From Phascolarctobacterium sp. (GTDB lineage Bacteria > Bacillota > Negativicutes > Acidaminococcales > Acidaminococcaceae): 38,920 bases of DNA. A program made the translations under genes and the position numbers. The stretch is from assembly GCA_020024105.1 (NCBI GenBank), contig JAHHUH010000018.1:1-38920 (forward strand), in the 5' to 3' direction. Below are positions 5,103 to 23,695 of this stretch, piece after piece. How positions within the stretch are numbered: position 1 is the first letter of the stretch; each line of letters begins with the position of its first letter. Under the pieces are notes generated by a model. It had not been told where the DNA came from, did not search any database, and saw nothing but the letters and a program-made list of their open reading frames with translations.

Positions 5103-5146
5103 AAAAGTCTTACCAATCTTGGGTTGGTAAGACTTTTTGCTTTATT
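5103..5146. terminator. Rho-independent terminator (12-bp perfect stem AAGTCTTACCAA/TTGGTAAGACTT, loop TCTTGGGT, then TTTTGCTTTATT)
   Basis: Read directly. A-run upstream makes it potentially bidirectional. It closes the RM/HEPN/DUF2971 transcription unit. Confidence 0.75.
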
Positions 5147-5552: not shown

Positions 5553-5735
5553 ATAGATAAAAAGATGAACCGTACAGAGTTAAAAGATGCTGCAGGAATT
5601 AGTTTTAATGTTCTCGCTAAAATGGGTCGTGATGAGTTTGTTTCCATGGAAAGTCTTCATAAAATCTGCAAGACGTTATCTTGCAATATAGGCGAGATAG
5701 TAGAATTTACGGACGAGGAGCAATCAAGGCAGTAA
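5517..5735 (+). CDS. Paralogous small HTH controller (C) protein
   Basis: 72 aa. The first 12 codons are nucleotide-identical to the 93-296 gene, then diverge (K/R and D/E substitutions, different C-terminus). Followed 48 nt later by a C5-MTase N-terminal remnant. Confidence 0.7.
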   Translation: MPVSYDKLWKMLIDKKMNRTELKDAAGISFNVLAKMGRDEFVSMESLHKICKTLSCNIGEIVEFTDEEQSRQ

Positions 5736-5782
5736 TAGAGATAAATTATTAGTTATTATGAGTATGGAGAGAATTATTTATT

Positions 5783-6041
5783 ATGCAGCAACCATTAACA
5801 TGTGTAGAAATTTGCGCAGGAGCTGGTGGACAGGCTTTGGGATTGGCCATGGCTGGATTCGTCCATGTCGCTTCATATTGTAGTCGTCACCGCTGAGTCT
5901 ATGCCTAATTGTGTGGCATCCTTTGTACTTGGTACAGAAGACATTGATAGTGTCTGCTACTTTGCGCTGTATGAGATGATCGGAGATGTCAAGGAAGTTA
6001 TCTCTGAAGATATAGTTGAAACTTTGGGAACGTTTGTCTAG
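5783..6041 (+). pseudogene. Remnant of a C5-cytosine DNA methyltransferase (motifs I-III only, frameshifted and truncated before the PCQ motif)
   Basis: Frame A 5783-5896: MQQPLTCVEICAGAGGQALGLAMAGF (motif I FxGxGG region), then a stop. Frame B (ORF 5826-6041) continues with ...CYFALYEMIGDVKEV..., resembling the motif II/III region of Dcm-type enzymes (compare M.HhaI EVYEMNFGE..GDITQV). Total is under 90 codons of an expected 350 or more. Confidence 0.65.
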
Positions 6042-6122
6042 GGGAAGTGGCTGAAGGATATTTCGGATTTACCGTTATACCTATCTATATAAACTGTTCA
6101 TAAAAGAAAGAAGTGAAATGTT

Positions 6123-8954
6123 GTGATAACAGAATGTGGATCAGAGTGGAATCGCTGGGACTTGCATCTGCATACGGCGTCTTCCTATGATTACAAATAT
6201 AAATCTGCTGATGCTGATGATTTGTTATGCCAAACTTTGAAACAAAATGGGGTAAAGGCCGTAGCCATAACGGATCATTTTAAAATCGATAAAGATAGAA
6301 TAGAAAGTTTACGTGCAAAAGCTCCTGAAATAGTGTTCTTTCCAGGGGTGGAACTTCGCACGGATAAAGGGGCAAATAATCTCCATCTAATACTGATTTT
6401 TTCCGAAAAATCGGATTTATCTACATTGTCAGCGGATTTTGACGCTATTATGGTACGGCAAAAGGCAAAATCTCCTGAATCTAATGATACAATCTATTGG
6501 GAGTTTTCTGACATTGTCTCTTTTGCAAAAGAACATAACGCTCTTATCACCATTCATGCTGGTAAAAAATCAAATGGGATTGATAAGGAAATTTCAAATT
6601 CTTTGCCAGTTAAGGAGGCAATTAAAGCTGATATTGCAAAGAACGTAGATTTTTTTGAAATCGGCCAGAAACGTGATACAGATTCTTATGAGAAATATGT
6701 CTTCAAGGAAATTGATCGAAAACCACTGATAATGTGCTCTGACTCGCATTCACCGCATGAATATAATCCAAAAGAAAATCTGTGGATCAAGGCCGATCTT
6801 ACTTTTGAAGGACTCAAACAGTGTTTATATCAACCGTTAGAACGAGTGTTTATCGGAGATATTCCCCCTATTCTGGATAGGGTCAATAAAAATAAACAAG
6901 GCAATATAGCTTCAATATCGTGCACTCGTGCAGAGAAACCGGTTAATGTAGACTTCAATTGGTTTGATTTTGAAATTCCTCTTAATCCAGGGATGATTGC
7001 TATAATTGGAAATAAAGGAAGCGGAAAAAGTGCTTTTTCTGATATTATTGCACATCTTTGTCGTTGCAGAACAATGGCAAGTGCATCCTTTTTAAATTCC
7101 AAAAGATTCAGGAAGGCTCCCAAAAATTATGCTAACGATTATTCTGCAACCTTAACATGGGTTGATGGAGAAAAGCGCAGTAGTTCCTTAGCAGCATATC
7201 AAGGGGACGCTTCTATTGAGGATGCACAGTATTTACCTCAAAAATACATTGAAGATGTGTGCAATGATTTTGAAGATGTTTTTCAAAAGGAAATTGACAA
7301 AGTCATTTTTTCATATGTGGATAAAACCGAGCGAGGTGATGCCCAAAATCTTGATGAACTTGTAAGGTTAAAGTCCAAACCATTGGAAATACGCTTTCAA
7401 AACGCACGAATTAAACTTGAGGATGTTAACAGAAGAATAATTAGGCTGGAGGATAAGCGAACTCAGGAATATCGAAAAAATCTCTCTGATAGTCTTAACA
7501 AAGCAGATGAAACATTGAAAAGACATGAAAAATCAAAACCCGTAGCCGTAAACAAACCGGATGGTAAAGATTCTAACGATGAGTATCAAGCCAAACTCAC
7601 TCAATTAAATCAAAGTATTGAGGATACAAAAGGAGAAATTCAAAAGATCAACGATCAAATTAGTGGTATCAATGCTTTTGTAGATGACGTCAGAACAATA
7701 GTAGCACAGATAGCACTTCTTAAAACACATTTTGGAGAAATCCAGGGAAAGATCGATGAACTTTCCGACAAGTATAGTTTAAATAAAGAGGACTATGCGT
7801 TTGCCCTGACTACACCTGATGAGTACTTCGATGAACTAATAAATAAAGCCGGTAAAGATAAGCTGGAATTGCAAGAAACTATTTCTGATTCGAATTCTGA
7901 TTCGAAAACTGGACTTGCTTTTTTACTTTCACAGTACGAGGCAGAAAAATCAATGTTAATTTCCTCAGCAGATGCAGAAGAAAAAGCGTACCAAAAATAT
8001 CTTAAGGATTTAGAAGAATGGGACAATAAGAAATCTGAAATCATAGGAAATAAAGATAGTGAAGGTTCCATTGAGTTCTATAAATACGCCCTTAATTATA
8101 TTGATACAATGCTTATCCCTGAGTATGAGGGACTTGTAAACGAAAGAGATGAAATCTCAAGGTCGCTTTATGAGGGGATAGTCGAGCTTTCACATATTTA
8201 CCAAAGTATATATGCACCCATTCAAGGTGAAATATCTGGGTTGCTTGGGGATTTGGAAGATAATGTCGAATTTCATGCTGAAGTGTTCATGCAAGATACA
8301 AGGATCGCTTCTAATATTTTAAGGTTTATTAATCAAAAATATAATGGAAAATATGGACGTTCCCATAATTCTTTGCAAGAGATAGAGAATAGAGTCAAAA
8401 CTACAAACTTTGGTGATGAAATAGAGGTAATGAATTTTGTTCATGATCTTGCAGAAGTGATAACCAGTGATTTCGAAACGGCAGAAAAGAGAGTTTCTAA
8501 TCGCCAAGAGTTTTATGACTTTATATTTGGACTGGAATATATTGGGGTTAATTTTAAACTCAAAATGGGTAATCACCCATTAGAAGAGCTTTCTCCAGGC
8601 GAACGAGGAATTATCTTGTTGATTTTTTATCTTGCCCTCAGTAAGGAAAGCAAGCCTATAATTATAGATCAACCGGAAGACAATCTGGATAATCAATCTG
8701 TTTATAGTAAATTGGTACCATGTATATGCAAAGCAAAGCAAAAACGTCAAGTTATCATTGTAACGCACAACCCTAATATTGCAGTTGCGTGTGATGCTGA
8801 ACAGATTGTTTATTGCGAGATGGATAAGGTGACAAACCAAATAACCTATGTTTCTGGTGCTATAGAAAACCAGACCATTCGAAATCATGTTGTGGATGTG
8901 CTTGAAGGAACTATGCCTGCGTTTGATTTGAGAAGATTGAAATATAATCAATAG
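6123..8954 (+). CDS. 943-aa fusion protein: N-terminal PHP (polymerase/histidinol-phosphatase) phosphoesterase domain plus Rad50/SbcC/SMC-like ABC ATPase with coiled-coil insert. Candidate single-protein anti-phage effector.
   Basis: PHP motifs WDLHLHTASSYD, VAITDH, TIHAG, MCSDSHSPHEY. Walker A IAIIGNKGSGKSAFSD. About 450-aa charged, heptad-rich region. ABC signature LSPGERG, Walker B PIIIDQPEDNLD, H-loop VIIVTHNP. GTG start (6123) after a purine-rich RBS. Low GC. Sits under the duplicated C-protein promoter. Confidence 0.8.
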   Translation: MITECGSEWNRWDLHLHTASSYDYKYKSADADDLLCQTLKQNGVKAVAITDHFKIDKDRIESLRAKAPEIVFFPGVELRTDKGANNLHLILIFSEKSDLSTLSADFDAIMVRQKAKSPESNDTIYWEFSDIVSFAKEHNALITIHAGKKSNGIDKEISNSLPVKEAIKADIAKNVDFFEIGQKRDTDSYEKYVFKEIDRKPLIMCSDSHSPHEYNPKENLWIKADLTFEGLKQCLYQPLERVFIGDIPPILDRVNKNKQGNIASISCTRAEKPVNVDFNWFDFEIPLNPGMIAIIGNKGSGKSAFSDIIAHLCRCRTMASASFLNSKRFRKAPKNYANDYSATLTWVDGEKRSSSLAAYQGDASIEDAQYLPQKYIEDVCNDFEDVFQKEIDKVIFSYVDKTERGDAQNLDELVRLKSKPLEIRFQNARIKLEDVNRRIIRLEDKRTQEYRKNLSDSLNKADETLKRHEKSKPVAVNKPDGKDSNDEYQAKLTQLNQSIEDTKGEIQKINDQISGINAFVDDVRTIVAQIALLKTHFGEIQGKIDELSDKYSLNKEDYAFALTTPDEYFDELINKAGKDKLELQETISDSNSDSKTGLAFLLSQYEAEKSMLISSADAEEKAYQKYLKDLEEWDNKKSEIIGNKDSEGSIEFYKYALNYIDTMLIPEYEGLVNERDEISRSLYEGIVELSHIYQSIYAPIQGEISGLLGDLEDNVEFHAEVFMQDTRIASNILRFINQKYNGKYGRSHNSLQEIENRVKTTNFGDEIEVMNFVHDLAEVITSDFETAEKRVSNRQEFYDFIFGLEYIGVNFKLKMGNHPLEELSPGERGIILLIFYLALSKESKPIIIDQPEDNLDNQSVYSKLVPCICKAKQKRQVIIVTHNPNIAVACDAEQIVYCEMDKVTNQITYVSGAIENQTIRNHVVDVLEGTMPAFDLRRLKYNQ

Positions 8955-12726: not shown

Positions 12727-13653
12727 TTATAGCTGCTTATCATAAAATGCCAGCTGCCGGAGCAATCTAGCTTTCAGCTTCTGGATAATACGGTCCGGAC
12801 TGAGTACCTGGATAAGAGGACCTAGGGAAAGCAGGCGGATAATCAGTTCTGCTTCGTCCTCGCTGTCATAGCTAATGGTAATTTGGTAGGTATGGGCTGT
12901 CAGTCTGGTGGTTTCCTTGGCAAAATGGGAAAATTGCAGGAGGGCCCGGTTAAGGGCGTTGCGGTGATCGTCCAGAATGAAGGCCAGCTGCTGTTGGGGC
13001 GGCTCCAGCACCCCGCCCAGTGGCGGAGGGTCAGCAAGGAGGGTACAGCTGTGAATACCGGAGAGCCTGAGGATGTAGCTTCTTTGGGCACCACTACCTC
13101 TAACTCTAAATTTATCATCCTTGGCAGAGTATTCCAGGTAGAGGGGAAGAAAATGGAGCTTTTGGAGCCGGTGGCCCTTCGTATAGTAGGTAAATGCCAG
13201 CTCCTGCCGCTGCTGGATGGCTTGGAGGATGGTCCGGAAGTTGGCTATGTAGTGGGGGCTACGAAAATTATCTCCGTCCTGGTAGCGGTCATAATAGACA
13301 ATGTCCTGCCAATCGAAAAGGGGCTTGAGCTTTTCCAGACCCTGGGTGCTAGGGCTAAAGAGCTGGATACGAGGGTCCTGGAGCAGGGTTGCGAGCCAGC
13401 GCTTTTCTAAAAGGGAGAGGGGCTGCTGAGGTGGATGGCGGATAACGGTGCTCAGGTCCTTCCGTAGCAGGGGCCATTCCTGCTGCAATGCCTGGGGCAG
13501 GGTAAGGACGCTTTCTTCAAAGGCCTTTTCCCGGACCAGCTGGTACAGCCTGTCCTGGGTAAGCTGGCCTCGGACGGCTTCCTGTAGGATGGCTGTAACA
13601 GTAGTAAAATAAACATTATAAATTTCCTGAAAGAGCATCTTCTTCACCTCCAT
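12727..13653 (-). CDS. WYL-domain protein (regulator-like, no obvious HTH)
   Basis: 308 aa. WYL-like stretch LPLYLEYSAKDDKFRVRGSGAQRSYILRLSGI. Overlaps the upstream gene by 38 nt. Confidence 0.5.
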   Translation of the reverse strand: MEVKKMLFQEIYNVYFTTVTAILQEAVRGQLTQDRLYQLVREKAFEESVLTLPQALQQEWPLLRKDLSTVIRHPPQQPLSLLEKRWLATLLQDPRIQLFSPSTQGLEKLKPLFDWQDIVYYDRYQDGDNFRSPHYIANFRTILQAIQQRQELAFTYYTKGHRLQKLHFLPLYLEYSAKDDKFRVRGSGAQRSYILRLSGIHSCTLLADPPPLGGVLEPPQQQLAFILDDHRNALNRALLQFSHFAKETTRLTAHTYQITISYDSEDEAELIIRLLSLGPLIQVLSPDRIIQKLKARLLRQLAFYDKQL

Positions 13654-14869
13654 AGAGTGCCAGCATTTTTAGTAAATCCTCTCGGTAGAGCTCCAGCAGG
13701 CGGGGATTAGTGCAGTCCAGCTTTTTGATGCGGCCGTAAAAGGTTCGTAGCCAGGGGAGCATTTCCAGCGTATCGTAAACATCGGCAGTAAAAAGATAGG
13801 TATCCTCCGCCAGCTTCTGGACGGAGCCGCAACGTTTTTCCCGATACAATCTCTGGACCAGATAGCCTTCTTCTGGTTCAAAGTGCAAGGTGACTTCTAA
13901 ATGCTCCGTGGTTTCCTGACCATTATATGAAACACCCCAAAGCCGCTGCTGAAATTCTGCCAGGGGCTGCTCCAGCTCCTGAACGGCAGGGTAAATATTG
14001 CCGGGGGTAACACTGATCAGCATATCCACCCGGTAAAAGCGGAAGCTGTGGTATTTTAGGGAATAGGACAGAAGAAAGCAGCGGCCACTTTGAACGCTGG
14101 TATAAATTTTTAAGGGCAGGACCTCCTGGGGTGGGAGGGGCTGCTGCTGACGGTTGACCAGCTCTAGCTGAACACAGCGGTGCTCCTGGAGGGCGGCAAG
14201 GAGGCTGTAAAGAATTTCGCTGTCCAGGGCGTGGAGGATGTAGTGATGCTTAAAGCGGAAGGGCTGCTCCATGGGGGGCAGCTTGTCCAGCAGAAAGGAG
14301 CCGAGGACGCCTAGGGGAGCCGTTTCTGCGTAAAAGCTGAGGGCAGTAGCCCAGGAGCTTAATGCAACCTGCTGGGGTGTTAGTCTGTAATAGAGCTCAC
14401 AACCGGATTTTTCTGTGGTTAATAGTCCCAGCCGTACATATTCCTGAAGCTTTTTGCGGATGGTGGAGGCATCAAGATTAAAATTCGTGTCAAAATGGGC
14501 TAAATAATCCTGGTAAATGCGGTTCACAATGGCTGTCGTTGTCAGGGACAGGCCACCGGCTAAAATATCCAGCAGATAAAAATGCAGGGTAATATCCCTG
14601 GCGGTAAAGCTTTTAGTTTTTAAGGATTTATAGAGGGGATTACTGGTGATGGCTCTGCTGTCCACGGAGAGGAAAACCTGCTTTCCCTCAGCATTGCGGT
14701 GAAAGGACAGATAATCTCCCAGCCAGCTTTCAATGCGGCGGCGTTCATTATCATAGCTGCGACGATTTTTGGGGGCGTAGTCCTCGCGACTTTTAAAGCC
14801 GTAAACATAGAATTGGCGCATGTAGGTACGGATTTTCTGATAATCCTTAATTAATTCACTATAGGCCAT
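13616..14869 (-). CDS. WYL-domain transcriptional regulator (N-terminal winged-HTH-like region plus WYL)
   Basis: 417 aa. WYL signature FLLSYSLKYHSFRFYRVDMLISV. Co-directional with and overlapping the second WYL gene (PafB/PafC-like pairing). Confidence 0.6.
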   Translation of the reverse strand: MAYSELIKDYQKIRTYMRQFYVYGFKSREDYAPKNRRSYDNERRRIESWLGDYLSFHRNAEGKQVFLSVDSRAITSNPLYKSLKTKSFTARDITLHFYLLDILAGGLSLTTTAIVNRIYQDYLAHFDTNFNLDASTIRKKLQEYVRLGLLTTEKSGCELYYRLTPQQVALSSWATALSFYAETAPLGVLGSFLLDKLPPMEQPFRFKHHYILHALDSEILYSLLAALQEHRCVQLELVNRQQQPLPPQEVLPLKIYTSVQSGRCFLLSYSLKYHSFRFYRVDMLISVTPGNIYPAVQELEQPLAEFQQRLWGVSYNGQETTEHLEVTLHFEPEEGYLVQRLYREKRCGSVQKLAEDTYLFTADVYDTLEMLPWLRTFYGRIKKLDCTNPRLLELYREDLLKMLALYGGEEDALSGNL

Positions 14870-16013: not shown

Positions 16014-16175
16014 CCAATTTCTTCCTTGAAAAGTCTGTTTTAGATTTCATAACATAAGTGTAGTCTGCTTTAGGTTTACTGTCAAGAAAACTACTATTAA
16101 ACTCTTAATGATAATATCTACTAGGCTAAAATATGTTACAATAGTAGTAACTAAGGACCCAAGGGAGGTGGGGGA

Positions 16176-16890
16176 ATGGAAAATTTAAATGGAGTAGAAA
16201 TGACACTTTTTGTACCCTTGCTGGGGAGAATTTTTGCCAGTAAGTATTTTCCACAAATTTTTTACGATGCCAAGGCTCTAGCATTGGAGCGGTTAGTGCC
16301 TGCTCACCTGCCCGAAAAAAGAGGGTCAGACGGAATATACTCTGATAGCGGGAGCTGTACGCTCTGCTAATATGGATTCCTATATAGATAGCTTTTTGCA
16401 AAGGCACCCTCAGGGGGTGGTAGTGGAGCTGGGCTGTGGCTTGGAAACAACCTATTGTCGGCATCCCCAAGGAAGCAGTACCTGGTATGGGGTGGATTTA
16501 CCGGAGGTAATTGACTACCGCCGAAAGCTGTTACCGGAGGTAGGGAGGCAGCGGTATGTGGCCAGTGGTATCCTCCAGGAAAATTGGCTGCAGGAGCTGC
16601 GGAGGGAGCATTCCGTGGAACCATTACTATTTACAGCCAGTGGTCTTTTTTACTATTTTTCCCGGGAGGAAGTGGACCAGCTTTTAACTAGGATAGGACA
16701 GTATGGTCCGGCAGAGATTGTTTTTGACGCAATGAATTACCTGGGCTATCTGCTCATTGGTCACTACATGAAGGAGGTAGGGCATGGGGACACGGATGTT
16801 AAATTTTATGTGGATGATATACAGCGGCTGGCCAGCAGGGTAGGTGCTGTGCAGGCGGTAGGGACTGCCTATTATGGGCAAAGGGTTTGA
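16176..16890 (+). pseudogene. Class I SAM-dependent O-methyltransferase (COG3315 / LCM-like) interrupted by a +1 frameshift (ORFs 16176-16370 and 16372-16890)
   Basis: First ORF carries the family N-terminus (TLFVPLLGRIFASKYFPQIFYDAKALALERL). The second carries ...FLQRHPQGVVVELGCGLETTY... (SAM-binding motif I). A stop and a 1-nt offset separate them. Confidence 0.65.
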
Positions 16891-16973
16891 GCCTGTCCAC
16901 CCCCATGTGGGGAGCGGACCACCTGCATGTGGTAAAAATGCTGCATTTAAAATTTAGCTAAGGAGGCAGAAAA

Positions 16974-17621
16974 ATGTGGAAGAAAATTATTATTCTGATC
17001 GCTCTGATACTGGCGGTTTTAGCAGTTAATTCTAATATTATGGTGCGTGATAATGTCAAAAAGATTGATTTTAAAGCAGAAATTAGTACTATGCGGCCCT
17101 GGTGGGTGCCTGAAGGTGTTGTAGGCTGGCTGGCAGTGAAGGAACTGGATGAAGACCTGCGCCAGGCCATTGTTACGGCTGCGGATATACCTCAGGATTA
17201 TTGGGCTAAGACCAGATGCTACTATAACTATGTGGATTTGAATGATGATGGACGGAGAGAGGCACTGGCTGTTTTGATTGGACCCTATACCAGTGGTAGT
17301 GGGGGCAACATGGCAGTGCTTTTGACAGAACAGAAGGAGGGCTGGCAGCTACAGCAGCTGATGACGCTCATCCATACGCCGGTACTGGTTGGCGAAAGTA
17401 AAACTAACGGCTACCGTGATTTGTATGTAGTACGGGCTGGCGGCGGTACGGAGGTAGAGGTTGTACAGCTTAGCTACGGAAAGGATGGAAGCTATACCAT
17501 GGTCAGCAAGGCTCCGGTAGTAAAGCTGTCACAGCAGATGATGGGAACCTTGCTTATGGATAATGACTTGGCTAAGGATGTGGTCAAGGGAGAATGGATA
17601 AGCTTGGAGAGGAAGCAATAA
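16974..17621 (+). CDS. Hypothetical secreted/membrane-anchored protein (N-terminal signal/TM segment)
   Basis: 215 aa. MWKKIIILIALILAVLAV hydrophobic N-terminus. AAGGAGG RBS. Confidence 0.45.
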   Translation: MWKKIIILIALILAVLAVNSNIMVRDNVKKIDFKAEISTMRPWWVPEGVVGWLAVKELDEDLRQAIVTAADIPQDYWAKTRCYYNYVDLNDDGRREALAVLIGPYTSGSGGNMAVLLTEQKEGWQLQQLMTLIHTPVLVGESKTNGYRDLYVVRAGGGTEVEVVQLSYGKDGSYTMVSKAPVVKLSQQMMGTLLMDNDLAKDVVKGEWISLERKQ

Positions 17622-17626
17622 AAAAA

Positions 17627-17677
17627 TAATCCTGTGATGCTGTACGGATAAGGTACAAAATCACGGGATTTTTTACT
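17627..17677 (+). terminator. Rho-independent terminator (AATCCTGTGAT ... ATCACGGGATT plus T6)
   Basis: Read directly. Its arms are near-identical to those of the terminator at 18492-18545. Confidence 0.7.
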
Positions 17678-17736
17678 ATATTGCTTTAGAGGGAATTTAT
17701 ATTAGTATAGCGAATAAGTAGAAGTTATTAGGGTAG

Positions 17737-18465
17737 GTGATAATGATGGATAGAATTCTAGACTTTGAGAACTGGATGCAAGAAAATAGTGTTTTAAGTG
17801 CAAGTACTAGATATAAATATCGTTTAGCGGTGAGCAGTATATCCAAGGACATGTTGCGTGAAGGTGTTATTCATAAAAAATTAATTGATATGAATCTTTT
17901 AGAGTTAGATTTATCCATAGCTAATATAGTCGTAAATCCATTTTTTATAAATAAGAATAAGGTTGGCCACAACATGTATAGTAATAGTTTGAGGCAGTAT
18001 CGCTACTATTTACTATTACACGAAAATGATGTTGATGATAAATCAGAGGAAGCTTTGATTGGAGATGTATCAGAAACAGAGAGGGTTGTTCTATCTAAGG
18101 CTAGAGTTGGGCAAGGTGTATATAGAGATGAATTGTTGAGAAAATACGGTGGTAAGTGTGTAATTACCGGTATAGACCATCCCAAGCTGTTAATAGCTAG
18201 TCATATAAAACCATGGAAGGTAGCTAATAATAAAGAGCGGATTGATGTTAATAACGGGTTATTGCTTTCAGCAAATATGGACAAGCTTTTTGATAGTGGA
18301 CTGATAACCTTTAAAGCTAATGGACAAATGGTAATTTCTTCGTATGTAGGTCAAACTAATAGTAAATTATTGGGGCTTTCTGATGATATGGTTGTAAATC
18401 TTTTACCAACTGCGGATTTGTTAAGATATATGGAATATCATAGGGATGTATTATTCGTAAAATAA
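17737..18465 (+). CDS. HNH_2-type (PF13391-like) HNH endonuclease with uncharacterised N-terminal domain
   Basis: C-terminal ...RVGQGVYRDELLRKYGGKCVITGIDHPKLLIASHIKPWKVANNKERIDVNNGLLLSANMDKLFDSGLITF matches the HNH_2 signature (R..Q..FR..LL..Y...C.ITG....LL.AAHIKPW......NGLLL...HRLFD.G). Probable start ATG 17743. Low GC. Confidence 0.8.
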   Translation: MIMMDRILDFENWMQENSVLSASTRYKYRLAVSSISKDMLREGVIHKKLIDMNLLELDLSIANIVVNPFFINKNKVGHNMYSNSLRQYRYYLLLHENDVDDKSEEALIGDVSETERVVLSKARVGQGVYRDELLRKYGGKCVITGIDHPKLLIASHIKPWKVANNKERIDVNNGLLLSANMDKLFDSGLITFKANGQMVISSYVGQTNSKLLGLSDDMVVNLLPTADLLRYMEYHRDVLFVK

Positions 18466-18491
18466 AAGCAATTTACACCTAAATAAAGGTA

Positions 18492-18545
18492 AAAAATATC
18501 CTGTGAGTTAGTATTAGAGAGTGCAAACTCACAGGATTTTTATTG
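18492..18545 (+). terminator. Rho-independent terminator (12-bp perfect stem ATCCTGTGAGTT/AACTCACAGGAT plus T5)
   Basis: Read directly. Confidence 0.8.
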
Positions 18546-18606
18546 TTTAAATAAATTATAAATGACTTATTTGATGATATAATAAGATCAAGAGATATAA
18601 GAAAGG

Positions 18607-19020
18607 GTGATTTCCTTGAAACATCTGGAGGTTGTAGCTGCGGCTATAGAGTATGATAATAAAATTTTGTGCATGCAAAGAAATAAGGCTAAATATGACT
18701 ATATAAGCTATAAATTTGAGTTTCCTGGCGGTAAGGTTGAGTTAGGAGAAGCAAACCACGAAGCTTTAGAACGTGAGCTACGCGAAGAGATGGATATGGA
18801 TATTAGTATTAGGGAAGAAGATCATATTATTACCGTGGAACATATCTACCCTGACTTTGCTATTACCTTACATACCTTTTTATGTAAGGTAAAAAGTCCA
18901 GACTTTAAGATGAAGGAACATATTTCTTTTCAGTGGCTACCTGTAGAGGAGATGGGCAAATTAGATTGGGCAGCAGCTGATAAACCAATCGTGGAGTATT
19001 TGCAAAAACATAGGAGTTAG
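18607..19020 (+). CDS. NUDIX hydrolase (MutT-like)
   Basis: 137 aa. Nudix box GGKVELGEANHEALERELREEMDM. 3-nt gap to the next ORF (co-transcribed). Confidence 0.8.
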   Translation: MISLKHLEVVAAAIEYDNKILCMQRNKAKYDYISYKFEFPGGKVELGEANHEALERELREEMDMDISIREEDHIITVEHIYPDFAITLHTFLCKVKSPDFKMKEHISFQWLPVEEMGKLDWAAADKPIVEYLQKHRS

Positions 19021-19023
19021 GTT

Positions 19024-21921
19024 ATGAATAAAGCAGAATTACAAATCTGTTTGGAAGCAGGCTTTATAGATTTTAATATTGATACAGATGAGCGTACTTT
19101 ACCTAAGATTCTAACCAATAATCAAGAGGAAAAAGTTAAAGTTTTAGACTCTTTGTTATATGAATTAAAAAATTGTGATGAATTTTTCTTTTCAGTAGCT
19201 TTTGTTACTAATAGTGGTGTAGCTTGTTTAATAGACATTTTAAATGAACTTAAAAATAAGAATATTAAGGGTAAAATACTAGCTTCCCAATATCAAAACT
19301 TTACAGAGCCTAGGGCTTTGAGAAGATTATTACAGTTTCCTAATTTAGAATTAAAAATTATCACAGCGGATTATAATTTCCACGCTAAAGGGTACCTATT
19401 TCATAAAAAAGCAAATTCTGAGCTTCAGCAAGAAGATAATTATAACATGATTATTGGAAGTAGTAATCTTACGCAAACAGCATTAACCATAAATCGTGAG
19501 TGGAATGTACAGCTTTCTTCCTTAAAGAATGGTGCTTTAATTAAGCAAATGCAGAAGGAATTACAACTAGCTTGGAATGATGCTACGGTAGTGGATGAAA
19601 ATTGGATAGCTTCTTATGAGACAATTTATCAGCAGGCTAGAAGTAGCCGTTTAGAGCAGAAACATGCAGTTATTGATTTATACAAAATTAATCCTAACAA
19701 AATGCAGGCTGAGGCATTACAAAGTTTGCAAGCCTTACGTGCTGAGGGAAAGAATAAGGCTCTACTAATTTCTGCTACTGGTACTGGTAAAACGTATTTA
19801 TCAGCTTTTGATGTTAGAGTAGTAAAGCCTAAAAGGTGTTTATTTGTTGTACATCGTAATTTGATTGCGAGGACAGCGAAAAGAAGCTTTGAAAAGGTAA
19901 TTGATAAAAATATCAGTACAGGTATCTTTTCTGGAAATAAAAAAGAAATAGATAAGGACTATTTATTTGCAACTATCCAAACTTTGGAAAAGGATGAAAA
20001 TTTAAAATTATTTGCACCTGATTATTTCGATTATATCGTTATTGATGAAGTACATCATGCGGGAGCGGAAACCTATCAAAAGGTGATGAAATATTTTAAA
20101 CCTAAATTTTTATTAGGTATGACAGCAACGCCGGAGCGTACTGACGGATACGATATTTTTAAAGCCTTCGATTATAATATCGCTTATGAAATTCGTTTGA
20201 ACCAAGCTCTAGAAGAAAATATGCTAGTTCCTTTTCATTATCATGGAATCAGTGAAATCACTGTGGACGGTCAGCTTTTAGACGAGCACACCGACTTTAG
20301 TAAATTAGTTTGCGAAGAACGCGTTAAACACATACTTCACTATGCAGAATTTTATGGTTGTGATTACGGACGAGTTAAGGGATTGGTATTTTGTAGCAGT
20401 ATAGCAGAAGCCGAAGAATTATCAGCAAAATTTTGTGAATATGGGAAAAATGCAACAGTGGTGACTGGTAAAAATTCTGAGGAGTTCCGTTCAGAGGCTA
20501 TTAAACGTTTAGAAAGTGATGTTTTACCTAGAGCTGAGCAGTTGGATTATATTTTTACAGTAGATGTTTTTAATGAAGGCGTAGATATACCCGCTATTAA
20601 TCAAATTGTTATGCTTAGACCTACTCAATCTGCTATTGTTTTTGTTCAGCAATTAGGCCGTGGTTTGCGTAAAAGTAATAATAAGCGTTATTTAGAGGTT
20701 ATTGATTTTATTGGTAACTACGAAAATAATTACTTACTTCCTATTGCCTTATTTGGAGACCGTAGTTACAACAGAGAAAAAGTACGCAAAGCAGTTCATA
20801 TCAATTATATGCCAGGTGCTTCTACTGTTTATATCGACGATATAGCTAAGGAAAAAATTTTTGCATCTCTTAATACAGGTAGAATCAGCTTATTTAAGGA
20901 ATATAAAAAATCCTATGAGTTAGTAAAGTTCAAATTAGGTCGAAGCCCTATGATGATGGATTTTGTCAATTTAGGAGATAAAGATCCTTATTTGTTTGTA
21001 CTTAAAGATGGCTCTTATTTTCATTTTAAGCAGCATGTAGATGTAGATGGTAGTAGAATCAGTGCGATAGCAGAAAAACTGTTAAAATTTATAGGCTTAG
21101 AATTGTGCAATGGTAAGCGTTTGGAGGAAATTGTTATACTTCAAGAGCTTTTGCATAGAGATAGCATTGGTGTGAAAGAGGTTCAACAATTTATGGAAGC
21201 AACTTATGATGTTCCTACCAATGAAGCAAGTATCTTAGGTGCGCTTAATGTTTTACAAATGACCTTCTTTAAGGAAGGGGACGCTAACAAGTATGGCAAT
21301 CTTCCTCTAGTAGAAATGTCATCGGGGAATAAACTTACTTTGACCACAGATTTTAAGGCATTGCTGGTTGATGAAAAGTTTAAATTTTATCTTGAGGATA
21401 GCTTGGCATACGCTAAGTGTAGTTTTTTAGCTACTTATGATAGGAAGAAATATATTAATGGTTTTAAATTATACGAAAATTATTCTCGTAAGGATGCCTG
21501 TCGTATTTTAAATTGGCAACATGATGATAGCTCTACTGTTTATGGTTATCGAGTAAAATATGATACCTGCCCTATGTTTGTCACTTACAATAAACAGGAT
21601 GATATTAGTGCTAGTACTAAATACGAAGACCGTTTCATTTCTCCTAAAGTTTTTAGTTGGATGACTAGAAGTAGGGTAAATATTTTTTCTAAGGAAGTAT
21701 TGGAAATTCAAAAGGCTAAAGTTAGAAAATTACTTTTTGTGAAAAAATCAGATGGTGATGGAACCTCTTTCTATTACATGGGTGATGTTACTACGGAGCC
21801 AGAAAAGTGTATCCAAGAACAGATTGAAGACGATAATGGGAATAAGCTTCCTATAGTTAATATTATTTATAAGATGGATAAATCTGTGGATGAGAGAATT
21901 TATAGTTATTTTGAAGATTAG
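19024..21921 (+). CDS. PLD-family (HKD) nuclease domain plus SF2 DEAH helicase (ResIII/Helicase_C) plus C-terminal DUF3427-like region. Defence-island helicase-nuclease.
   Basis: 965 aa. HKD motif FHAKGYLFHK...IIGSSNLT. Walker A LISATGTGKTYLSA. DEVHH (IVIDEVHHAG). Motif III GMTATPER. Motif VI QQLGRGLRK. The long C-terminal extension matches the size of DUF3427. Low GC. Confidence 0.85.
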   Translation: MNKAELQICLEAGFIDFNIDTDERTLPKILTNNQEEKVKVLDSLLYELKNCDEFFFSVAFVTNSGVACLIDILNELKNKNIKGKILASQYQNFTEPRALRRLLQFPNLELKIITADYNFHAKGYLFHKKANSELQQEDNYNMIIGSSNLTQTALTINREWNVQLSSLKNGALIKQMQKELQLAWNDATVVDENWIASYETIYQQARSSRLEQKHAVIDLYKINPNKMQAEALQSLQALRAEGKNKALLISATGTGKTYLSAFDVRVVKPKRCLFVVHRNLIARTAKRSFEKVIDKNISTGIFSGNKKEIDKDYLFATIQTLEKDENLKLFAPDYFDYIVIDEVHHAGAETYQKVMKYFKPKFLLGMTATPERTDGYDIFKAFDYNIAYEIRLNQALEENMLVPFHYHGISEITVDGQLLDEHTDFSKLVCEERVKHILHYAEFYGCDYGRVKGLVFCSSIAEAEELSAKFCEYGKNATVVTGKNSEEFRSEAIKRLESDVLPRAEQLDYIFTVDVFNEGVDIPAINQIVMLRPTQSAIVFVQQLGRGLRKSNNKRYLEVIDFIGNYENNYLLPIALFGDRSYNREKVRKAVHINYMPGASTVYIDDIAKEKIFASLNTGRISLFKEYKKSYELVKFKLGRSPMMMDFVNLGDKDPYLFVLKDGSYFHFKQHVDVDGSRISAIAEKLLKFIGLELCNGKRLEEIVILQELLHRDSIGVKEVQQFMEATYDVPTNEASILGALNVLQMTFFKEGDANKYGNLPLVEMSSGNKLTLTTDFKALLVDEKFKFYLEDSLAYAKCSFLATYDRKKYINGFKLYENYSRKDACRILNWQHDDSSTVYGYRVKYDTCPMFVTYNKQDDISASTKYEDRFISPKVFSWMTRSRVNIFSKEVLEIQKAKVRKLLFVKKSDGDGTSFYYMGDVTTEPEKCIQEQIEDDNGNKLPIVNIIYKMDKSVDERIYSYFED

Positions 21922-21945
21922 TTATTCTGGTTTAAAACTCTAAAA

Positions 21946-21990
21946 TAAAAAGACTTCTAAAGCTAAGGCTCTAGAAGTCTTTTTATTTAT
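21946..21990. terminator. Bidirectional terminator (AAAAGACTTCTA ... TAGAAGTCTTTT)
   Basis: Perfect 12-bp stem flanked by A and T runs. Lies between the convergent helicase (+) and Fic (-) genes. Confidence 0.8.
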
Positions 21991-22029: not shown

Positions 22030-23259
22030 TTAATTAGCCGCTGCTTTGCCTAAAGCCTCTAAATTAAGCTTATATTTATAGGTTTTCTCTCTTTTATCAA
22101 TAATGATAAATTCTTTAGGAATGGCAGATAATCTTTTTTTGATAGTATTAGTAGCTAAGTTTAATTCTTGAACCAAAATCTGCATAGGTACGCCAGTTGG
22201 CGCAAAAAGTGTTGTTTGTAAGAGAATATAGTAAAGTTGCAGAATGTCCTCAGATGGATTAAATTTGAGGATAATATCATACCAGTTTTTGAGCTGTCCA
22301 AGCTTATTTTCTACATCTTCTAAAGTGAGTTTTAATGATTTTTCAAATAAAGTTAAAAACTCGTTGATAAAATAAGTCAAATCGCCACAGTTTAAAGCAG
22401 AGTTAGTATCTTCAAACATTTTATAATAAATTTTTTGATCATGCTTGATGACTAAAGAAAGGTTTAAGGCTGCTAAGGGACCATAGTCTATAGATAGATA
22501 GTAGGCGGTTATAAAACGGATTGTTCGACCGTTACCATCATAAAAAGGGTGTAAATATGCAAATAAATAGTGAAAAATAGCTATTCTAAGAATACTAGGA
22601 TAGTCATTACTATTGAGTATGGTTAAAGCGTAGTTCATATGTTCTATTAGCTTCTCTTCTGGGTAGGTACCTATATGGAGTATTTTTTGTGTTCCTGTAG
22701 TGATTTCGACAGGGTCCTTTCTAAAAATTTTACCATCCGGCACATTTTTTGGATTTTCTTTAGAAACTTCTGAAACGACGAATTCATCATAAAAATTACG
22801 GATATCCTTACTTTGGGTAAAAGTAAATTTTTTATGCTGGAGAAGTTTGTAATATTTGTTAACAATACTATAAAATCTAGTTTTTTTCTCTTTAGTCTTT
22901 TGTTGAACCTGTGCTAGAGCTTCTTGAATTTCTTTACGAGAACTGCGTACACCCTCAATCTCATTCGTTGCTTGGATTTCTTCTACCATATAGTTAGTTG
23001 TCAATTGGATTAATGCTACTGGTGGTAATTGTTGAATAGCTGCGTTTAGGGATAAATTAAGATTATGTATATTATCCAGTAAAGAAACCAATTCCCTTGT
23101 GTAGCAAAAGAAGGCAGAATAGCTATCTTGGTGATTATATTCTTTTATACTAAAATCAAGGTGTTCAGTAAATGGAGCACGAAATCTTTCTTCGTAGGAT
23201 TGTTTCCAATACTCTCGGTCTGTTTTATAGTAAATTTTTTTTAGTTGTGTGTAAGACAT
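22030..23259 (-). CDS. Fic/DOC family protein (putative AMPylator)
   Basis: 409 aa. Canonical Fic motif HPFYDGNGRTIR. Low GC. Confidence 0.9.
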   Translation of the reverse strand: MSYTQLKKIYYKTDREYWKQSYEERFRAPFTEHLDFSIKEYNHQDSYSAFFCYTRELVSLLDNIHNLNLSLNAAIQQLPPVALIQLTTNYMVEEIQATNEIEGVRSSRKEIQEALAQVQQKTKEKKTRFYSIVNKYYKLLQHKKFTFTQSKDIRNFYDEFVVSEVSKENPKNVPDGKIFRKDPVEITTGTQKILHIGTYPEEKLIEHMNYALTILNSNDYPSILRIAIFHYLFAYLHPFYDGNGRTIRFITAYYLSIDYGPLAALNLSLVIKHDQKIYYKMFEDTNSALNCGDLTYFINEFLTLFEKSLKLTLEDVENKLGQLKNWYDIILKFNPSEDILQLYYILLQTTLFAPTGVPMQILVQELNLATNTIKKRLSAIPKEFIIIDKREKTYKYKLNLEALGKAAAN

Positions 23260-23399
23260 GATGTTCCTCCTTAAGTCAAGAAGTAAATTATGTAATCAAT
23301 AACAATGTCAAAAATAGTCAAAATTGATATTGAAAATATCTTATCTTCATTATGATATCAAAAATGGCCAATTTTGACTAGATGCTTAGGGTAAAAATG

Positions 23400-23599
23400 C
23401 TTTGAAGTGCAAAAATTGGCTTTTTTGATAAGGTGCTATTCCGCTTAATGGAATTGGGAGGGGGAGGAGCGTTGTTACTGGTGAAGCTTTGCCAGGCATT
23501 GAAGCAAAGCTGAGGGCCTTTGCTTAGTTGCTTACTAGGGATGGTGCTACAATATTTAGGCCTATTTACGGTGTACCTTGTAACATCCTTTGCATTTTC
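23400..23599 (+). promoter_or_regulatory. 5' leader of the metF-metH operon (candidate riboswitch/attenuator, class undetermined)
   Basis: About 250-nt untranslated GC-richer leader with internal hairpins (CTTTGC...GCAAAG, GGGAGGGGGAGGAGCG tract) that ends in an intrinsic terminator only 45 nt before the metF ATG. I could not match S-box or T-box consensus by eye. Confidence 0.35.
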
Positions 23600-23651
23600 C
23601 CTGTCCACAAGATAAAGACAAAGCTAAATTTGCGTGGACAATTTTTTTTTG
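23600..23651 (+). terminator. Leader terminator (stem TGTCCAC/GTGGACA plus T9) upstream of metF
   Basis: Read directly. Its placement before the first codon implies conditional read-through. Confidence 0.6.
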
Positions 23652-23695
23652 CTAAAATAAGCTGTATTATATTAATGATAGAGGGGTAGTCAGCT

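What the first reader, a model, noticed from the sequence alone, without database searches (positions are those of the whole stretch)
17680..21990. Second low-GC cassette: HNH_2 nuclease, NUDIX hydrolase and PLD-nuclease/SF2-helicase/DUF3427-like giant protein
Three AT-rich genes lie between strong terminators. The first is a stand-alone HNH_2 endonuclease with an unknown N-terminal domain. The other two form a tightly coupled pair, a MutT-like NUDIX hydrolase (3-nt gap) followed by a 965-aa protein with an N-terminal HKD phospholipase-D nuclease motif, a DEVHH SF2 helicase core and a long C-terminal domain. PLD-helicase-DUF3427 proteins resemble type III-like or type IV restriction modules. 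A dedicated NUDIX partner is unusual and suggests nucleotide-signal or modified-nucleotide hydrolysis (for example sanitising or sensing a nucleotide second messenger, or removing a nucleotide cap) as part of the mechanism. The HNH gene may be an independent type IV-like enzyme or a third component.
Basis: partly seen in the sequence, partly recalled or inferred. Interest (0 to 1): 0.65.

Follow-up and report, generated by a model that had tools for sequence, protein, structure and literature searches.

The report
SauUSI-type restriction operon with NUDIX partner
The large protein belongs to the known SauUSI family of enzymes that cut methylated foreign DNA, the small NUDIX gene in front of it is that family's usual partner (probably destroying methylated cytosine nucleotides before they enter the host's own DNA), and the HNH gene is an unrelated neighbour.

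Summary
The three genes, the low GC and the terminators are real. The 965-aa protein is a full-length homologue of SauUSI. SauUSI is the S. aureus ATP-dependent type IV enzyme that cuts 5mC/5hmC DNA. PLD, helicase and 5mC-pocket residues are conserved.

The NUDIX partner is not unusual. In 80 species-representative SauUSI-like loci from bacteria and archaea, 76 of 78 evaluable loci carry it. It usually lies upstream, with a median gap of -2.5 nt. The linkage was noted in 2011, and PADLOC lists the NUDIX as PDC-S07.

The NUDIX is not housekeeping MutT or NudG. Its closest solved relative is B. fragilis Q5LBB1 (PDB 3GWY, 55% identity), which nests inside the SauUSI-linked clade. Published kinetics show it hydrolyses 5-methyl-(d)CTP and 5-hydroxymethyl-dCTP at about 5x10^6 M-1 s-1. 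The same NUDIX family is also coupled to McrA/SRA-HNH type IV enzymes and to a PDC-S41 nuclease-helicase.

Best reading: the operon pairs a nuclease with a pool sanitiser that keeps 5mC/5hmC out of host DNA. This role is inferred, not shown.

The HNH_2 protein has a recombinase core-binding-like N-domain and a VcaM4I-like HNH domain. It is an independent defence-island gene.

Verdict: a new member of a known kind.

The parts
17628..17675 (+). Intrinsic terminator ending the upstream gene (UCP028175 family, 16974-17621). It marks the left edge of the low-GC island.
   Evidence: Hairpin followed by a U-run, -22.1 kcal/mol, z -6.9. Its stem, ATCCTGTGA..TCACGGGAT, resembles that of the next terminator.
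17743..18465 (+). Stand-alone HNH_2 nuclease gene (240 aa; an alternative GTG start lies at 17737). It forms its own transcription unit and is not part of the SauUSI module. The N-terminal domain (aa 1-95) resembles a tyrosine-recombinase core-binding domain. The C-terminal HNH domain is homologous to that of the modification-dependent enzyme VcaM4I.
18498..18542 (+). Intrinsic terminator after the HNH gene. It separates that gene from the NUDIX/SauUSI-like operon.
   Evidence: 12-bp stem followed by a U-run, -22.6 kcal/mol, z -6.1.
18575..18583 (+). Possible extended -10 promoter element (TGATATAAT) for the NUDIX/SauUSI-like operon. This is inferred only.
   Evidence: Read directly from the sequence. 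It is a consensus match only, and the promoter scan did not list it.
18607..19020 (+). NUDIX hydrolase (137 aa) and first gene of the operon. It belongs to the type-IV-linked NUDIX family (PADLOC PDC-S07). It is predicted to be a 5-methyl/5-hydroxymethyl-(d)CTP pyrophosphohydrolase.
   Evidence: Pfam NUDIX/NUDIX_4. PDC-S07 1.6e-43 over the full length. The Nudix box G-x5-E-x7-REUxEE is intact. PDB 3GWY 6e-42 at 55% identity, and PDB 5X1X (the S. aureus SauUSI-adjacent NUDIX) 5e-25. Scores fall below the MutT and NudG equivalog cut-offs. Kinetics of 3GWY/Q5LBB1 are in PMC5158307.
19024..21921 (+). SauUSI-family type IV restriction endonuclease (965 aa). Domains in order: PLD nuclease (H120, K122, GSSN 145-148), SF2 ATPase (SATGTGKT 250-257, DEVH 341-344, TATP 367-370, QQLGRGLR 542-549), coupler, and a C-terminal SRA-like target-recognition domain (DUF3427). 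The 5mC pocket residues are Y842, F852, V853, D869 and W879.
   Evidence: PDB 7CLG 1.2e-214, aligned over 9-963 against 11-951. PADLOC mREase_IV PDLC03658, 747 bits. Pfam domains. Invariant columns with SauUSI. Pocket residues mapped from PMC7913695.
21946..21986 (.). Bidirectional intrinsic terminator between the convergent SauUSI-like and Fic genes.
   Evidence: -22.0 kcal/mol on the + strand and -26.1 kcal/mol on the - strand, z -7.8 and -8.2, with U-runs on both strands.
22030..23259 (-). Neighbouring Fic-domain gene (409 aa, SoFic-like) in the same low-GC island. It is context only, not part of the operon.
   Evidence: Pfam Fic 1.8e-12, with the HPFYDGNGRT motif. PADLOC SoFic 1.1e-30. Not conserved next to SauUSI homologues.

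Best explanation
The region is a small, horizontally acquired defence island in a Phascolarctobacterium-like gut bacterium. It holds three independent units.

(1) NUDIX plus SauUSI-like operon.
- The large protein is predicted to work like SauUSI. Its C-terminal SRA-like domain flips out 5-methyl- or 5-hydroxymethylcytosine in incoming DNA. This switches on the SF2 ATPase, which translocates and loops the DNA. The dimeric N-terminal PLD nuclease then cuts and shreds the modified DNA.
- The NUDIX enzyme, translated first from the same mRNA, is predicted to hydrolyse 5-methyl-(d)CTP and 5-hydroxymethyl-dCTP to the monophosphates.
- Its most likely role is as a safety partner. It would keep modified cytosine nucleotides out of the dNTP pool, so that the polymerase does not write 5mC/5hmC into the host chromosome and make it a target of its own nuclease. 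Possible sources of these nucleotides are degraded restricted DNA, scavenged DNA and turnover of m5C-containing RNA.
- A secondary benefit could be starving phages that build hmC or 5mC genomes.

(2) The HNH_2 gene is a separate nuclease. It has a recombinase core-binding-like DNA-binding domain and a VcaM4I-type HNH domain. Its target is unknown.

(3) A SoFic-like Fic gene.

What is shown and what is inferred:
- Shown here: homology, motif conservation, operon structure and near-obligate linkage.
- Shown by others on relatives: SauUSI biochemistry and structure, and the kinetics of the NUDIX relative Q5LBB1.
- Inferred: the substrate of this particular NUDIX, and the self-protection role.
For: Large protein:
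- Full-length match to the SauUSI structure 7CLG (E 1e-214) and to PADLOC mREase_IV.
- The PLD H/K/GSSN motif, helicase motifs I, II, III and VI, and 5mC-pocket residues Y842, F852, D869 and W879 are invariant with SauUSI.
- The SauUSI mechanism is described in PMC3141236, PMC7913695 and bioRxiv 10.1101/2025.10.16.682607. The last of these includes initiation on hemimethylated DNA.

Linkage:
- Of 80 species-representative SauUSI-like loci, 76 carry a homologous NUDIX next to the nuclease, and 2 of the other 4 are cut by contig ends. The loci span Bacillota, Bacteroidota, Fusobacteriota, Spirochaetes, Gammaproteobacteria and Archaea.
- The NUDIX lies upstream on the same strand in 70 loci. The median gap is -2.5 nt, with a range of -11 to +23.
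- Identities of the two genes to the window pair co-vary (r = 0.76).
- The flanking genes are not shared between species.
- The pair also occurs on a mobilizable Hymenobacter plasmid.

NUDIX substrate:
- The best solved relative, 3GWY (Q5LBB1_BACFN), is 55% identical.
- In the tree it nests inside the SauUSI-linked clade. In 99 of 100 bootstraps NudG and MutT fall outside the clade joining 3GWY and the window protein.
- Its measured kcat/Km values are 6.7e6 for 5-Me-CTP, 4.8e6 for 5-Me-dCTP and 4.4e6 for 5-hydroxymethyl-dCTP. The value for 5-OH-dCTP is 50-fold lower, and canonical NTPs are much lower (PMC5158307). These are the nucleotide forms of the two bases SauUSI recognises.

Independent association:
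- The same NUDIX family (PDC-S07, 159 bits) is translationally coupled to a non-homologous McrA/TagI-type SRA-HNH type IV enzyme in 15 loci.
- It is also coupled to a PDC-S41 nuclease-helicase.
- Its role is therefore tied to the target of the nuclease rather than to the PLD or ATPase machinery.

Genetics: deleting the nudix gene in S. aureus did not relieve restriction (PMC3312211). This fits an accessory or protective role rather than a catalytic one.
Against: - No experiment links the NUDIX to self-protection.
- The S. aureus nudix deletion strain was obtained (PMC3312211), so any protection is conditional.
- Two of the 78 evaluable SauUSI homologues lack the NUDIX (L056 and L081).
- The substrate is inferred from a 55%-identical relative. 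I could not confirm that the B. fragilis gene itself sits next to a type IV enzyme, because the scan failed.
- The S. aureus partner NUDIX (5X1X) and several loci with the NUDIX downstream belong to more NudG-like branches. Specificity may therefore differ between lineages.
- Whether bacteria convert 5-methyl-dCMP or 5-methyl-CMP to the dNTP at meaningful rates is not established here.
- The third partner family, PDC-S41, has no recognisable modified-base reader.
Confidence: 0.6

Rival explanations
1. The NUDIX is mainly an offensive anti-phage effector. It depletes the hm-dCTP or 5m-dCTP pools that cytosine-modifying phages need. These phages then either fail to replicate or make unmodified DNA that other systems cut. 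The SauUSI-like enzyme handles DNA that arrives already modified.
For: The substrates of the clade member Q5LBB1 include 5-hydroxymethyl-dCTP. PADLOC lists the family as a single-gene defence candidate, PDC-S07. The genes sit in a defence island.
Against: A stand-alone effector should often occur alone. Instead it is translationally coupled, mostly as the first gene, to a nuclease in nearly every case examined. Removing the modification from phage DNA would also remove the target of its partner nuclease. No phage data exist.
Confidence: 0.2
2. The NUDIX supports or regulates the nuclease directly. Proposed routes are hydrolysing a nucleotide signal, removing a cap, or handling ATP/dATP/pyrophosphate for the helicase motor. 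This covers the first reader's signalling idea and the pyrophosphate suggestion of Xu et al. 2011.
For: Tight operon coupling. The Xu 2011 speculation.
Against: Deleting nudix in S. aureus did not relieve restriction. Purified SauUSI works alone in vitro (PMC3141236 and PMC7913695). The same NUDIX family pairs with McrA-type HNH enzymes, which carry no recognisable ATPase domain. Measured substrates of the clade member are 5-substituted cytosine NTPs. No cyclase or signal-generating gene is present in the island.
Confidence: 0.07
3. The NUDIX is a housekeeping MutT or NudG that happens to lie next to the restriction gene.
For: Weak NCBIfam hits to MutT and NudG models. General MutT-like fold.
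Against: All equivalog scores are far below their cut-offs: MutT 68 against 97.9, NudG 79.5 against 156. Identity is 28% to E. coli MutT and 36% to NudG, against 55% to 3GWY. The gene travels with the nuclease across phyla and chromosomal sites. It shares the island's low GC.
Confidence: 0.03
4. HNH, NUDIX and the SauUSI-like protein form one three-component system.
For: They are adjacent, on the same strand, and all low in GC.
Against: A strong terminator separates HNH from the operon. An HNH homologue occurs near only 5 of 80 SauUSI-like loci, as the HNH domain only, on either side and either strand. Full-length HNH homologues lie next to unrelated systems: Vsr with a C5-methylase and NgoBV, MspI or HpaII R-M systems, MORC-like ATPases, and mobile elements.
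Confidence: 0.03

Closest known systems
SauUSI (S. aureus SAUSA300_2431; PDB 7CLG), an ATP-dependent type IV restriction endonuclease, with its upstream NUDIX gene SAUSA300_2432 (PDB 5X1X)
   Same: The domain order is the same over the full length: PLD nuclease, SF2 ATPase, coupler, SRA-like TRD/DUF3427. Catalytic, ATPase and 5mC-pocket residues are conserved. A small NUDIX gene lies directly upstream in the same operon.
   Different: Identity to SauUSI is only 43%. Pocket residue M829 is Y840 here, and I842 is V853. The window NUDIX is 45% identical to the S. aureus one and belongs to the 3GWY-like branch rather than the NudG-like branch. The host is a Gram-negative-type Negativicute. The sequence context preference (S5mCNGS in SauUSI) is unknown here.
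Bacteroides fragilis Q5LBB1 (PDB 3GWY), a 5-methyl/5-hydroxymethyl-(d)CTP pyrophosphohydrolase
   Same: 55% identical. It has the same Nudix box variant (EEMD), the same KxxY loop insertion, and the YPDF and LDWA(A/E)AD motifs. It nests within the SauUSI-linked NUDIX clade.
   Different: The activity of the window protein is untested. The genomic neighbourhood of Q5LBB1 could not be retrieved here.
E. coli NudG (Orf135) and MutT
   Same: The same MutT-type NUDIX fold. NudG also prefers 5-methyl-dCTP among tested substrates (Table 3 of PMC5158307).
   Different: Identity is 36% to NudG and 28% to MutT. Scores fall below the NCBIfam equivalog cut-offs. E. coli nudG is a solitary chromosomal gene with no adjacent restriction gene.
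VcaM4I and related EVE/PUA-HNH modification-dependent endonucleases (relevant to the HNH_2 gene)
   Same: The C-terminal HNH nuclease module is homologous (E 7.7e-25, about 35% identity). The two-domain layout is the same: a reader or binding domain followed by HNH.
SoFic (relevant to the neighbouring Fic gene)
   Same: Fic motif HPFxxGNGR. The PADLOC SoFic profile matches over nearly its full length (1e-30).
   Different: The score is below the NCBIfam SoFic equivalog cut-off (37 against 550). Not studied further.

Membership tests
SauUSI-family type IV restriction endonuclease | N-terminal PLD nuclease domain with the catalytic HxK and GSxN motifs | tested here: met
   Pfam PLDc_2 5e-8. F119-H120-A-K122 and G145-S-S-N148 are invariant with SauUSI.
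SauUSI-family type IV restriction endonuclease | SF2 helicase-like ATPase core (motifs I, II, III and VI) | tested here: met
   ResIII 3.5e-41 and Helicase_C 2.7e-11. SATGTGKT, DEVH, TATP and QQLGRGLR are invariant.
SauUSI-family type IV restriction endonuclease | C-terminal SRA-like target-recognition domain (DUF3427) with the 5mC pocket residues (SauUSI Y831, F841, I842, D858, W868) | tested here: met
   DUF3427 2.9e-82. The window has Y842, F852, V853, D869 and W879. Four are identical and one is conservative.
SauUSI-family type IV restriction endonuclease | Full-length collinear homology to SauUSI | tested here: met
   7CLG residues 11-951 align with window residues 9-963, 718 bits. PADLOC PDLC03658 positions 10-951 of 953 are matched.
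SauUSI-family type IV restriction endonuclease | ATP-dependent cleavage of 5mC/5hmC DNA but not unmodified DNA | not testable with these tools
   Requires biochemistry. Inferred from conserved residues only.
Type-IV-linked NUDIX (PADLOC PDC-S07; Q5LBB1/3GWY-like 5-substituted (d)CTP pyrophosphohydrolase) | Intact Nudix box GX5EX7REUXEEXGU | tested here: met
   G42-KVELG-E48-ANHEALE-R56-E57-L-R-E60-E61-M-D-M. The penultimate G is D, as in 3GWY.
Type-IV-linked NUDIX (PADLOC PDC-S07; Q5LBB1/3GWY-like 5-substituted (d)CTP pyrophosphohydrolase) | Full-length match to the PDC-S07 profile, and clade membership with Q5LBB1 | tested here: met
   PDC-S07 1.6e-43 over positions 5-131 of 135. In the NJ tree 3GWY is nested among SauUSI-linked sequences, 99/100 bootstraps.
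Type-IV-linked NUDIX (PADLOC PDC-S07; Q5LBB1/3GWY-like 5-substituted (d)CTP pyrophosphohydrolase) | Operonic linkage to a type IV nuclease | tested here: met
   The gap is 3 nt in the window. The linkage holds in 76 of 78 evaluable loci.
Type-IV-linked NUDIX (PADLOC PDC-S07; Q5LBB1/3GWY-like 5-substituted (d)CTP pyrophosphohydrolase) | Preferential hydrolysis of 5-methyl/5-hydroxymethyl-(d)CTP | not testable with these tools
   Known only for Q5LBB1 (PMC5158307).
Housekeeping MutT (8-oxo-dGTPase) or NudG equivalogs | Score at or above the NCBIfam equivalog cut-off | tested here: not met
   TIGR00586 68.1 against 97.9. PRK10776 65 against 148. NudG PRK10546 79.5 against 156.
EVE/PUA/SRA-HNH modification-dependent endonucleases (for the HNH_2 gene) | HNH nuclease module homologous to characterised members | tested here: met
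   VcaM4I (6yex) 7.7e-25 over aa 108-239.
EVE/PUA/SRA-HNH modification-dependent endonucleases (for the HNH_2 gene) | N-terminal modified-base reader domain (EVE, PUA, SRA or DUF3427) | tested here: not met

The most novel reading that the evidence does not exclude
The small NUDIX enzymes encoded with 5mC/5hmC-dependent type IV nucleases act as the 'immunity' half of a two-part system. The partner nucleases seen here are the SauUSI family, McrA/SRA-HNH enzymes and possibly PDC-S41. The NUDIX would hydrolyse 5-methyl- and 5-hydroxymethyl-(d)CTP so that salvaged modified cytosines are never written into the host chromosome, which prevents autoimmunity. In that case many 'single-protein' type IV systems would really be nuclease plus pool-sanitiser pairs, analogous to the methylase in classical restriction-modification. 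I did not find this role stated in the literature I could search.
Probability: 0.5. Interest if true: 0.6.

Novelty: new member of a known kind. Interest (0 to 1): 0.35.

Why it matters
The locus itself is an ordinary, already-catalogued defence module. Its value lies in a small question left open since 2011: why nearly every SauUSI-type enzyme carries a NUDIX gene.

Three results combine into a concrete, cheap-to-test hypothesis that the NUDIX removes the nucleotide precursors of the very bases the nuclease attacks. First, the linkage is near-universal across phyla. Second, the same NUDIX family is re-used with a non-homologous 5mC-dependent nuclease. Third, published kinetics exist for a clade member.

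If the hypothesis is right, it explains how modification-dependent enzymes avoid self-damage. It also tells annotators and defence-system catalogues to treat PDC-S07 as a partner gene rather than a stand-alone system. And it matters for engineering strains in which SauUSI-type barriers are manipulated.

Tried and rejected
- I tried to retrieve the genomic neighbourhood of B. fragilis Q5LBB1/3GWY. tblastn against phage and plasmid records, and an IMG/VR scan, found no near-identical copy. The direct test of whether Q5LBB1 sits next to a type IV enzyme therefore remains undone. Phylogenetic nesting was used instead.
- The consensus terminator scan found none at the gene ends. Folding showed that it had missed long-loop hairpins.
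- Rfam searches of the whole window and of the metF leader found nothing.
- The full-length AF2 model of the HNH protein was poor in the HNH half. Foldseek on it gave only VcaM4I. A separate N-domain model was needed.
- A second IMG/VR scan with a NUDIX alignment added no new partner types.
- The first tree script timed out.
- Rejected readings: HNH as a third component, NUDIX as housekeeping MutT/NudG, a NUDIX signalling or cap role, and a type III-like enzyme (no methylase, and the full-length match is to SauUSI).
- The literature searches found no paper assigning a function to the SauUSI-linked NUDIX. The library does not cover most subscription journals.

Full report
**Observation**

- HNH gene: 17737/17743-18465, 242 aa (240 aa by gene callers).
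- NUDIX gene: 18607-19020, 137 aa.
- Large gene: 19024-21921, 965 aa.

All three lie on the + strand. GC drops to 0.30-0.34 between about 17.6 and 23.3 kb, against 0.45-0.52 on either side. The low-GC island therefore also includes a convergent Fic gene at 22030-23259 (-).

Pfam confirms HNH_2, NUDIX/NUDIX_4, and PLDc_2 + ResIII + Helicase_C + DUF3427.

The NUDIX stop and the ATG of the large gene are 3 nt apart. An AGGAG ribosome-binding site lies inside the NUDIX 3' end.

Three hairpins followed by U-runs lie at 17628-17675, 18498-18542 and 21946-21986. Each folds at -22 to -26 kcal/mol, with z-scores of -6 to -8 against shuffles. A simple consensus scan had missed them because of their long loops. 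The HNH gene is thus its own transcription unit, and NUDIX plus the large gene form an operon.

The same arrangement is present at 99.7% and 98.9% identity on two independent metagenome contigs.

**The large protein**

It aligns over its whole length with the crystal-structure sequence of SauUSI (PDB 7CLG, E 1.2e-214, residues 9-963 against 11-951). It also matches the PADLOC type IV profile built on that family (747 bits).

In an alignment with SauUSI and eleven database homologues, the following are invariant:
- the PLD residues H120 and K122, and G145-S-S-N148;
- helicase motifs I (SATGTGKT), II (DEVH), III (TATP) and VI (QQLGRGLR).

Tumuluri et al. 2021 identified the residues lining the 5-methylcytosine pocket of the SauUSI SRA-like domain as Y831, F841, I842, D858 and W868 (PMC7913695). 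These map to Y842, F852, V853, D869 and W879 in the window protein.

SauUSI cuts DNA containing 5mC or 5hmC in an ATP-dependent way (PMC3141236). It translocates and loops DNA after recognising even a hemimethylated site (bioRxiv 10.1101/2025.10.16.682607).

The window protein is 43% identical to SauUSI, so it is a new member of that family, not a new kind of enzyme.

The only DNA methyltransferase in the window is an N6-adenine enzyme of a PstI/BsuBI-type system. This is compatible with a resident 5mC-dependent nuclease.

**Is the NUDIX partner unusual?**

No. I scanned one genome per species (GTDB) with an alignment of the family and kept the 80 best loci. They come from Bacillota, Bacteroidota, Fusobacteriota, Spirochaetes, Gammaproteobacteria and three archaeal lineages.
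- A homologue of the window NUDIX lies next to the nuclease in 76 of them.
- Two of the remaining four are cut by the contig end. Only two, L056 and L081, truly lack it.
- It is upstream on the same strand in 70 loci. Across the 66 of these that the script could measure, the median intergenic distance is -2.5 nt, with a range of -11 to +23.
- It lies downstream on the opposite strand in 4 loci and downstream on the same strand in 2.
- The identities of the two proteins to the window pair co-vary (r = 0.76).
- None of the window's flanking housekeeping genes accompany the pair elsewhere.
- The pair also sits on a mobilizable Hymenobacter plasmid.

The pair moves as a unit.

This linkage is in the literature.
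- Xu et al. 2011 noted the conserved MutT/NUDIX gene next to sauUSI and at least 60 similar pairs, with function unknown.
- Monk et al. 2012 deleted it in S. aureus Newman and saw no relief of restriction.
- Bell et al. 2020 drew it in a figure.
- An S. suis survey found PADLOC PDC-S07 and type IV co-localised in 23 of 23 cases.

The window NUDIX matches PDC-S07 over its full length (1.6e-43).

**What the NUDIX probably does**

It is not a housekeeping MutT or NudG. All NCBIfam equivalog scores are well below their cut-offs. Identity is 28% to E. coli MutT and 36% to NudG.

Its best solved relative is PDB 3GWY (E 6e-42, 55% identity). The second best, 5X1X, turned out to be the S. aureus NUDIX encoded directly upstream of SauUSI, by an exact sequence match.

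3GWY is B. fragilis Q5LBB1. Nguyen et al. 2016 screened it against 74 Nudix substrates and measured kcat/Km (PMC5158307):
- 6.7e6 M-1 s-1 for 5-Me-CTP;
- 4.8e6 for 5-Me-dCTP;
- 4.4e6 for 5-hydroxymethyl-dCTP;
- 50-fold less for 5-OH-dCTP;
- much less for canonical NTPs.

In a neighbour-joining tree of the 76 SauUSI-linked NUDIX sequences with MutT, NudG, 3GWY and 5X1X, 3GWY nests inside the linked clade. In 99 of 100 bootstraps the clade joining 3GWY and the window protein excludes NudG and MutT. The window protein shares with 3GWY the Nudix-box variant, a loop insertion, and the YPDF and LDWA(A/E)AD motifs.

The partner enzyme of a nuclease that reads 5mC and 5hmC in DNA therefore belongs to a clade whose characterised member destroys the triphosphates of those same bases.

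**Independent support from other partners**

Searching viral and prophage contigs with the 3GWY sequence gave 15 loci. In each, a PDC-S07-type NUDIX (47% identical to the window's) is immediately followed by a ~272-aa protein.
- This protein has a sub-threshold SAD/SRA N-terminal region.
- Its HNH domain matches E. coli McrA (6GHC, 7e-17), ScoMcrA and TagI.
- It is therefore a different, non-homologous 5mC-directed type IV architecture.

Closer NUDIX relatives (67-75% identity) overlap by 4-8 nt a ~665-aa PADLOC PDC-S41 protein. That protein has a PD-(D/E)xK/NERD-like N-terminus and a DUF2075/SLFN-type helicase.

On a Selenomonas plasmid, a 43%-identical NUDIX sits near a DUF262 protein and a nucleoside deoxyribosyltransferase.

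The NUDIX thus follows the kind of target, modified DNA, rather than the PLD or ATPase machinery. This argues against a role in feeding or regulating the SauUSI motor.

**Mechanism proposed**

Shown or well founded:
- the large protein is a SauUSI-type enzyme;
- the NUDIX is its canonical, co-transferred operon partner;
- a clade member hydrolyses 5-methyl/5-hydroxymethyl-(d)CTP;
- the partner is not needed for restriction in S. aureus.

Inferred:
- the window NUDIX has the same specificity;
- its role is to keep modified cytosine nucleotides out of the dNTP pool, so that replication does not create hemimodified sites that the resident nuclease would attack. Possible sources of these nucleotides are digestion of restricted DNA, scavenged DNA and m5C-RNA turnover.

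The gene order (NUDIX first in 70 of 76 loci) and the near-obligate co-inheritance fit a protective partner, as in restriction-modification and toxin-antitoxin pairs.

The main rival is that the NUDIX acts offensively by starving phages that build hmC or 5mC genomes. The two roles are not exclusive.

Weak points:
- no experiment supports the protective role;
- the S. aureus nudix deletion strain could be obtained, which implies it is viable;
- two homologues lack the gene;
- some lineages use more NudG-like NUDIX proteins;
- I could not retrieve the B. fragilis neighbourhood of Q5LBB1.

**The HNH gene**

It is a member of a widespread ~240-aa family in Clostridia and Negativicutes.

Its C-terminal half is homologous to the HNH module of the modification-dependent enzyme VcaM4I (7.7e-25).

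Homologues sit in varied defence or mobile contexts, often beside Vsr plus a C5-methylase R-M system. None was seen with the SauUSI pair. Near SauUSI-like loci, only 5 of 80 have any HNH_2 domain nearby.

It is an independent nuclease of unknown target.

**Verdict**

Its central claim of an unusual NUDIX partner is wrong.

The locus is a new member of a known kind. What remains of interest is the still-untested role of the NUDIX partner. The evidence gathered here gives a specific and testable hypothesis for it.

Noticed in passing
L105-L119 (IMG/VR loci), e.g. L107:5995-7223: The same NUDIX family (PADLOC PDC-S07, 159 bits) is immediately followed by a ~272-aa protein. That protein has a sub-threshold SAD/SRA N-terminal region and an HNH domain matching E. 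coli McrA, ScoMcrA and TagI. This is a second, non-homologous 5mC-type restriction partner for the NUDIX.
   Followed up: partly
L128-L135, e.g. L131:4001-6402: NUDIX homologues 67-75% identical to the window's overlap by 4-8 nt a ~665-aa PADLOC PDC-S41 protein. That protein has a weak NERD/PD-(D/E)xK-like N-terminus and a SLFN-g3/DUF2075 helicase. This is a third partner type, and no modified-base reader was recognised in it.
   Followed up: partly
L104 (Selenomonas ruminantium plasmid pSRC2, NC_017076.1 43688-47186): A 43%-identical NUDIX without a SauUSI homologue lies next to a nucleoside 2-deoxyribosyltransferase and a DUF262 protein. The latter matches PADLOC HEC-05, HEC-06 and SspE-like models.
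   Followed up: no
window 22030-23259 (-): A Fic-domain protein (409 aa, HPFYDGNGRT motif) matches the PADLOC SoFic profile (1e-30). It is convergent with the SauUSI-like gene and lies in the same low-GC island. It is not conserved next to SauUSI homologues.
   Followed up: partly
window 293-8954: The first low-GC cassette holds a PstI/BsuBI-type type II R-M pair: an Eco57I/N6_Mtase methylase at 293-1780 and a BsuBI_PstI endonuclease at 1777-2697. It also holds a Hypoth_Ymh protein (2719-3582), a 352-aa protein with no Pfam hit (3742-4800), and a 943-aa protein with PHP and SMC_N/AAA_21 domains (6123-8954).
   Followed up: partly
window about 16161-16961 (+): The LCM-family methyltransferase gene is broken by two frameshifts relative to the 266-aa gene on the 99.7%-identical contig L001. 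This is either a pseudogene or sequencing errors in the window.
   Followed up: partly
window 17629-17669 and 18498-18537: The two terminator hairpins that bracket the HNH gene share the stem sequence ATCCTGTGA...TCAC(A/G)GGAT. Shuffles give 0 such matches by chance. They might mark the boundaries of an inserted cassette.
   Followed up: no
window 23260-23695 (+): A ~435-nt leader lies upstream of the metF/metH genes. It ends in a hairpin (TGTCCAC...GTGGACA) followed by a run of nine T just before the start codon, which resembles a transcription attenuator. There is no Rfam match at gathering score or at E<=1.
   Followed up: partly
window 17743-18030 (+), aa 1-95 of the HNH_2 protein: A confidently modelled helical domain (pLDDT about 90) resembles tyrosine-recombinase core-binding domains and is fused to an HNH nuclease. 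It has no Pfam family. It is conserved across about 2000 database homologues.
   Followed up: partly
window 12727-14869 (-): A 417-aa protein with a weak WYL-domain hit overlaps a 308-aa protein with no Pfam hit. They lie between the two low-GC cassettes.
   Followed up: no
L056 (Haloplasma contractile MAG) 4968-6001 and L081: These are the only two evaluable SauUSI homologues without a NUDIX neighbour. L056 has about 1 kb upstream with no ORF of 70 aa or more. This could be a decayed partner gene.
   Followed up: no
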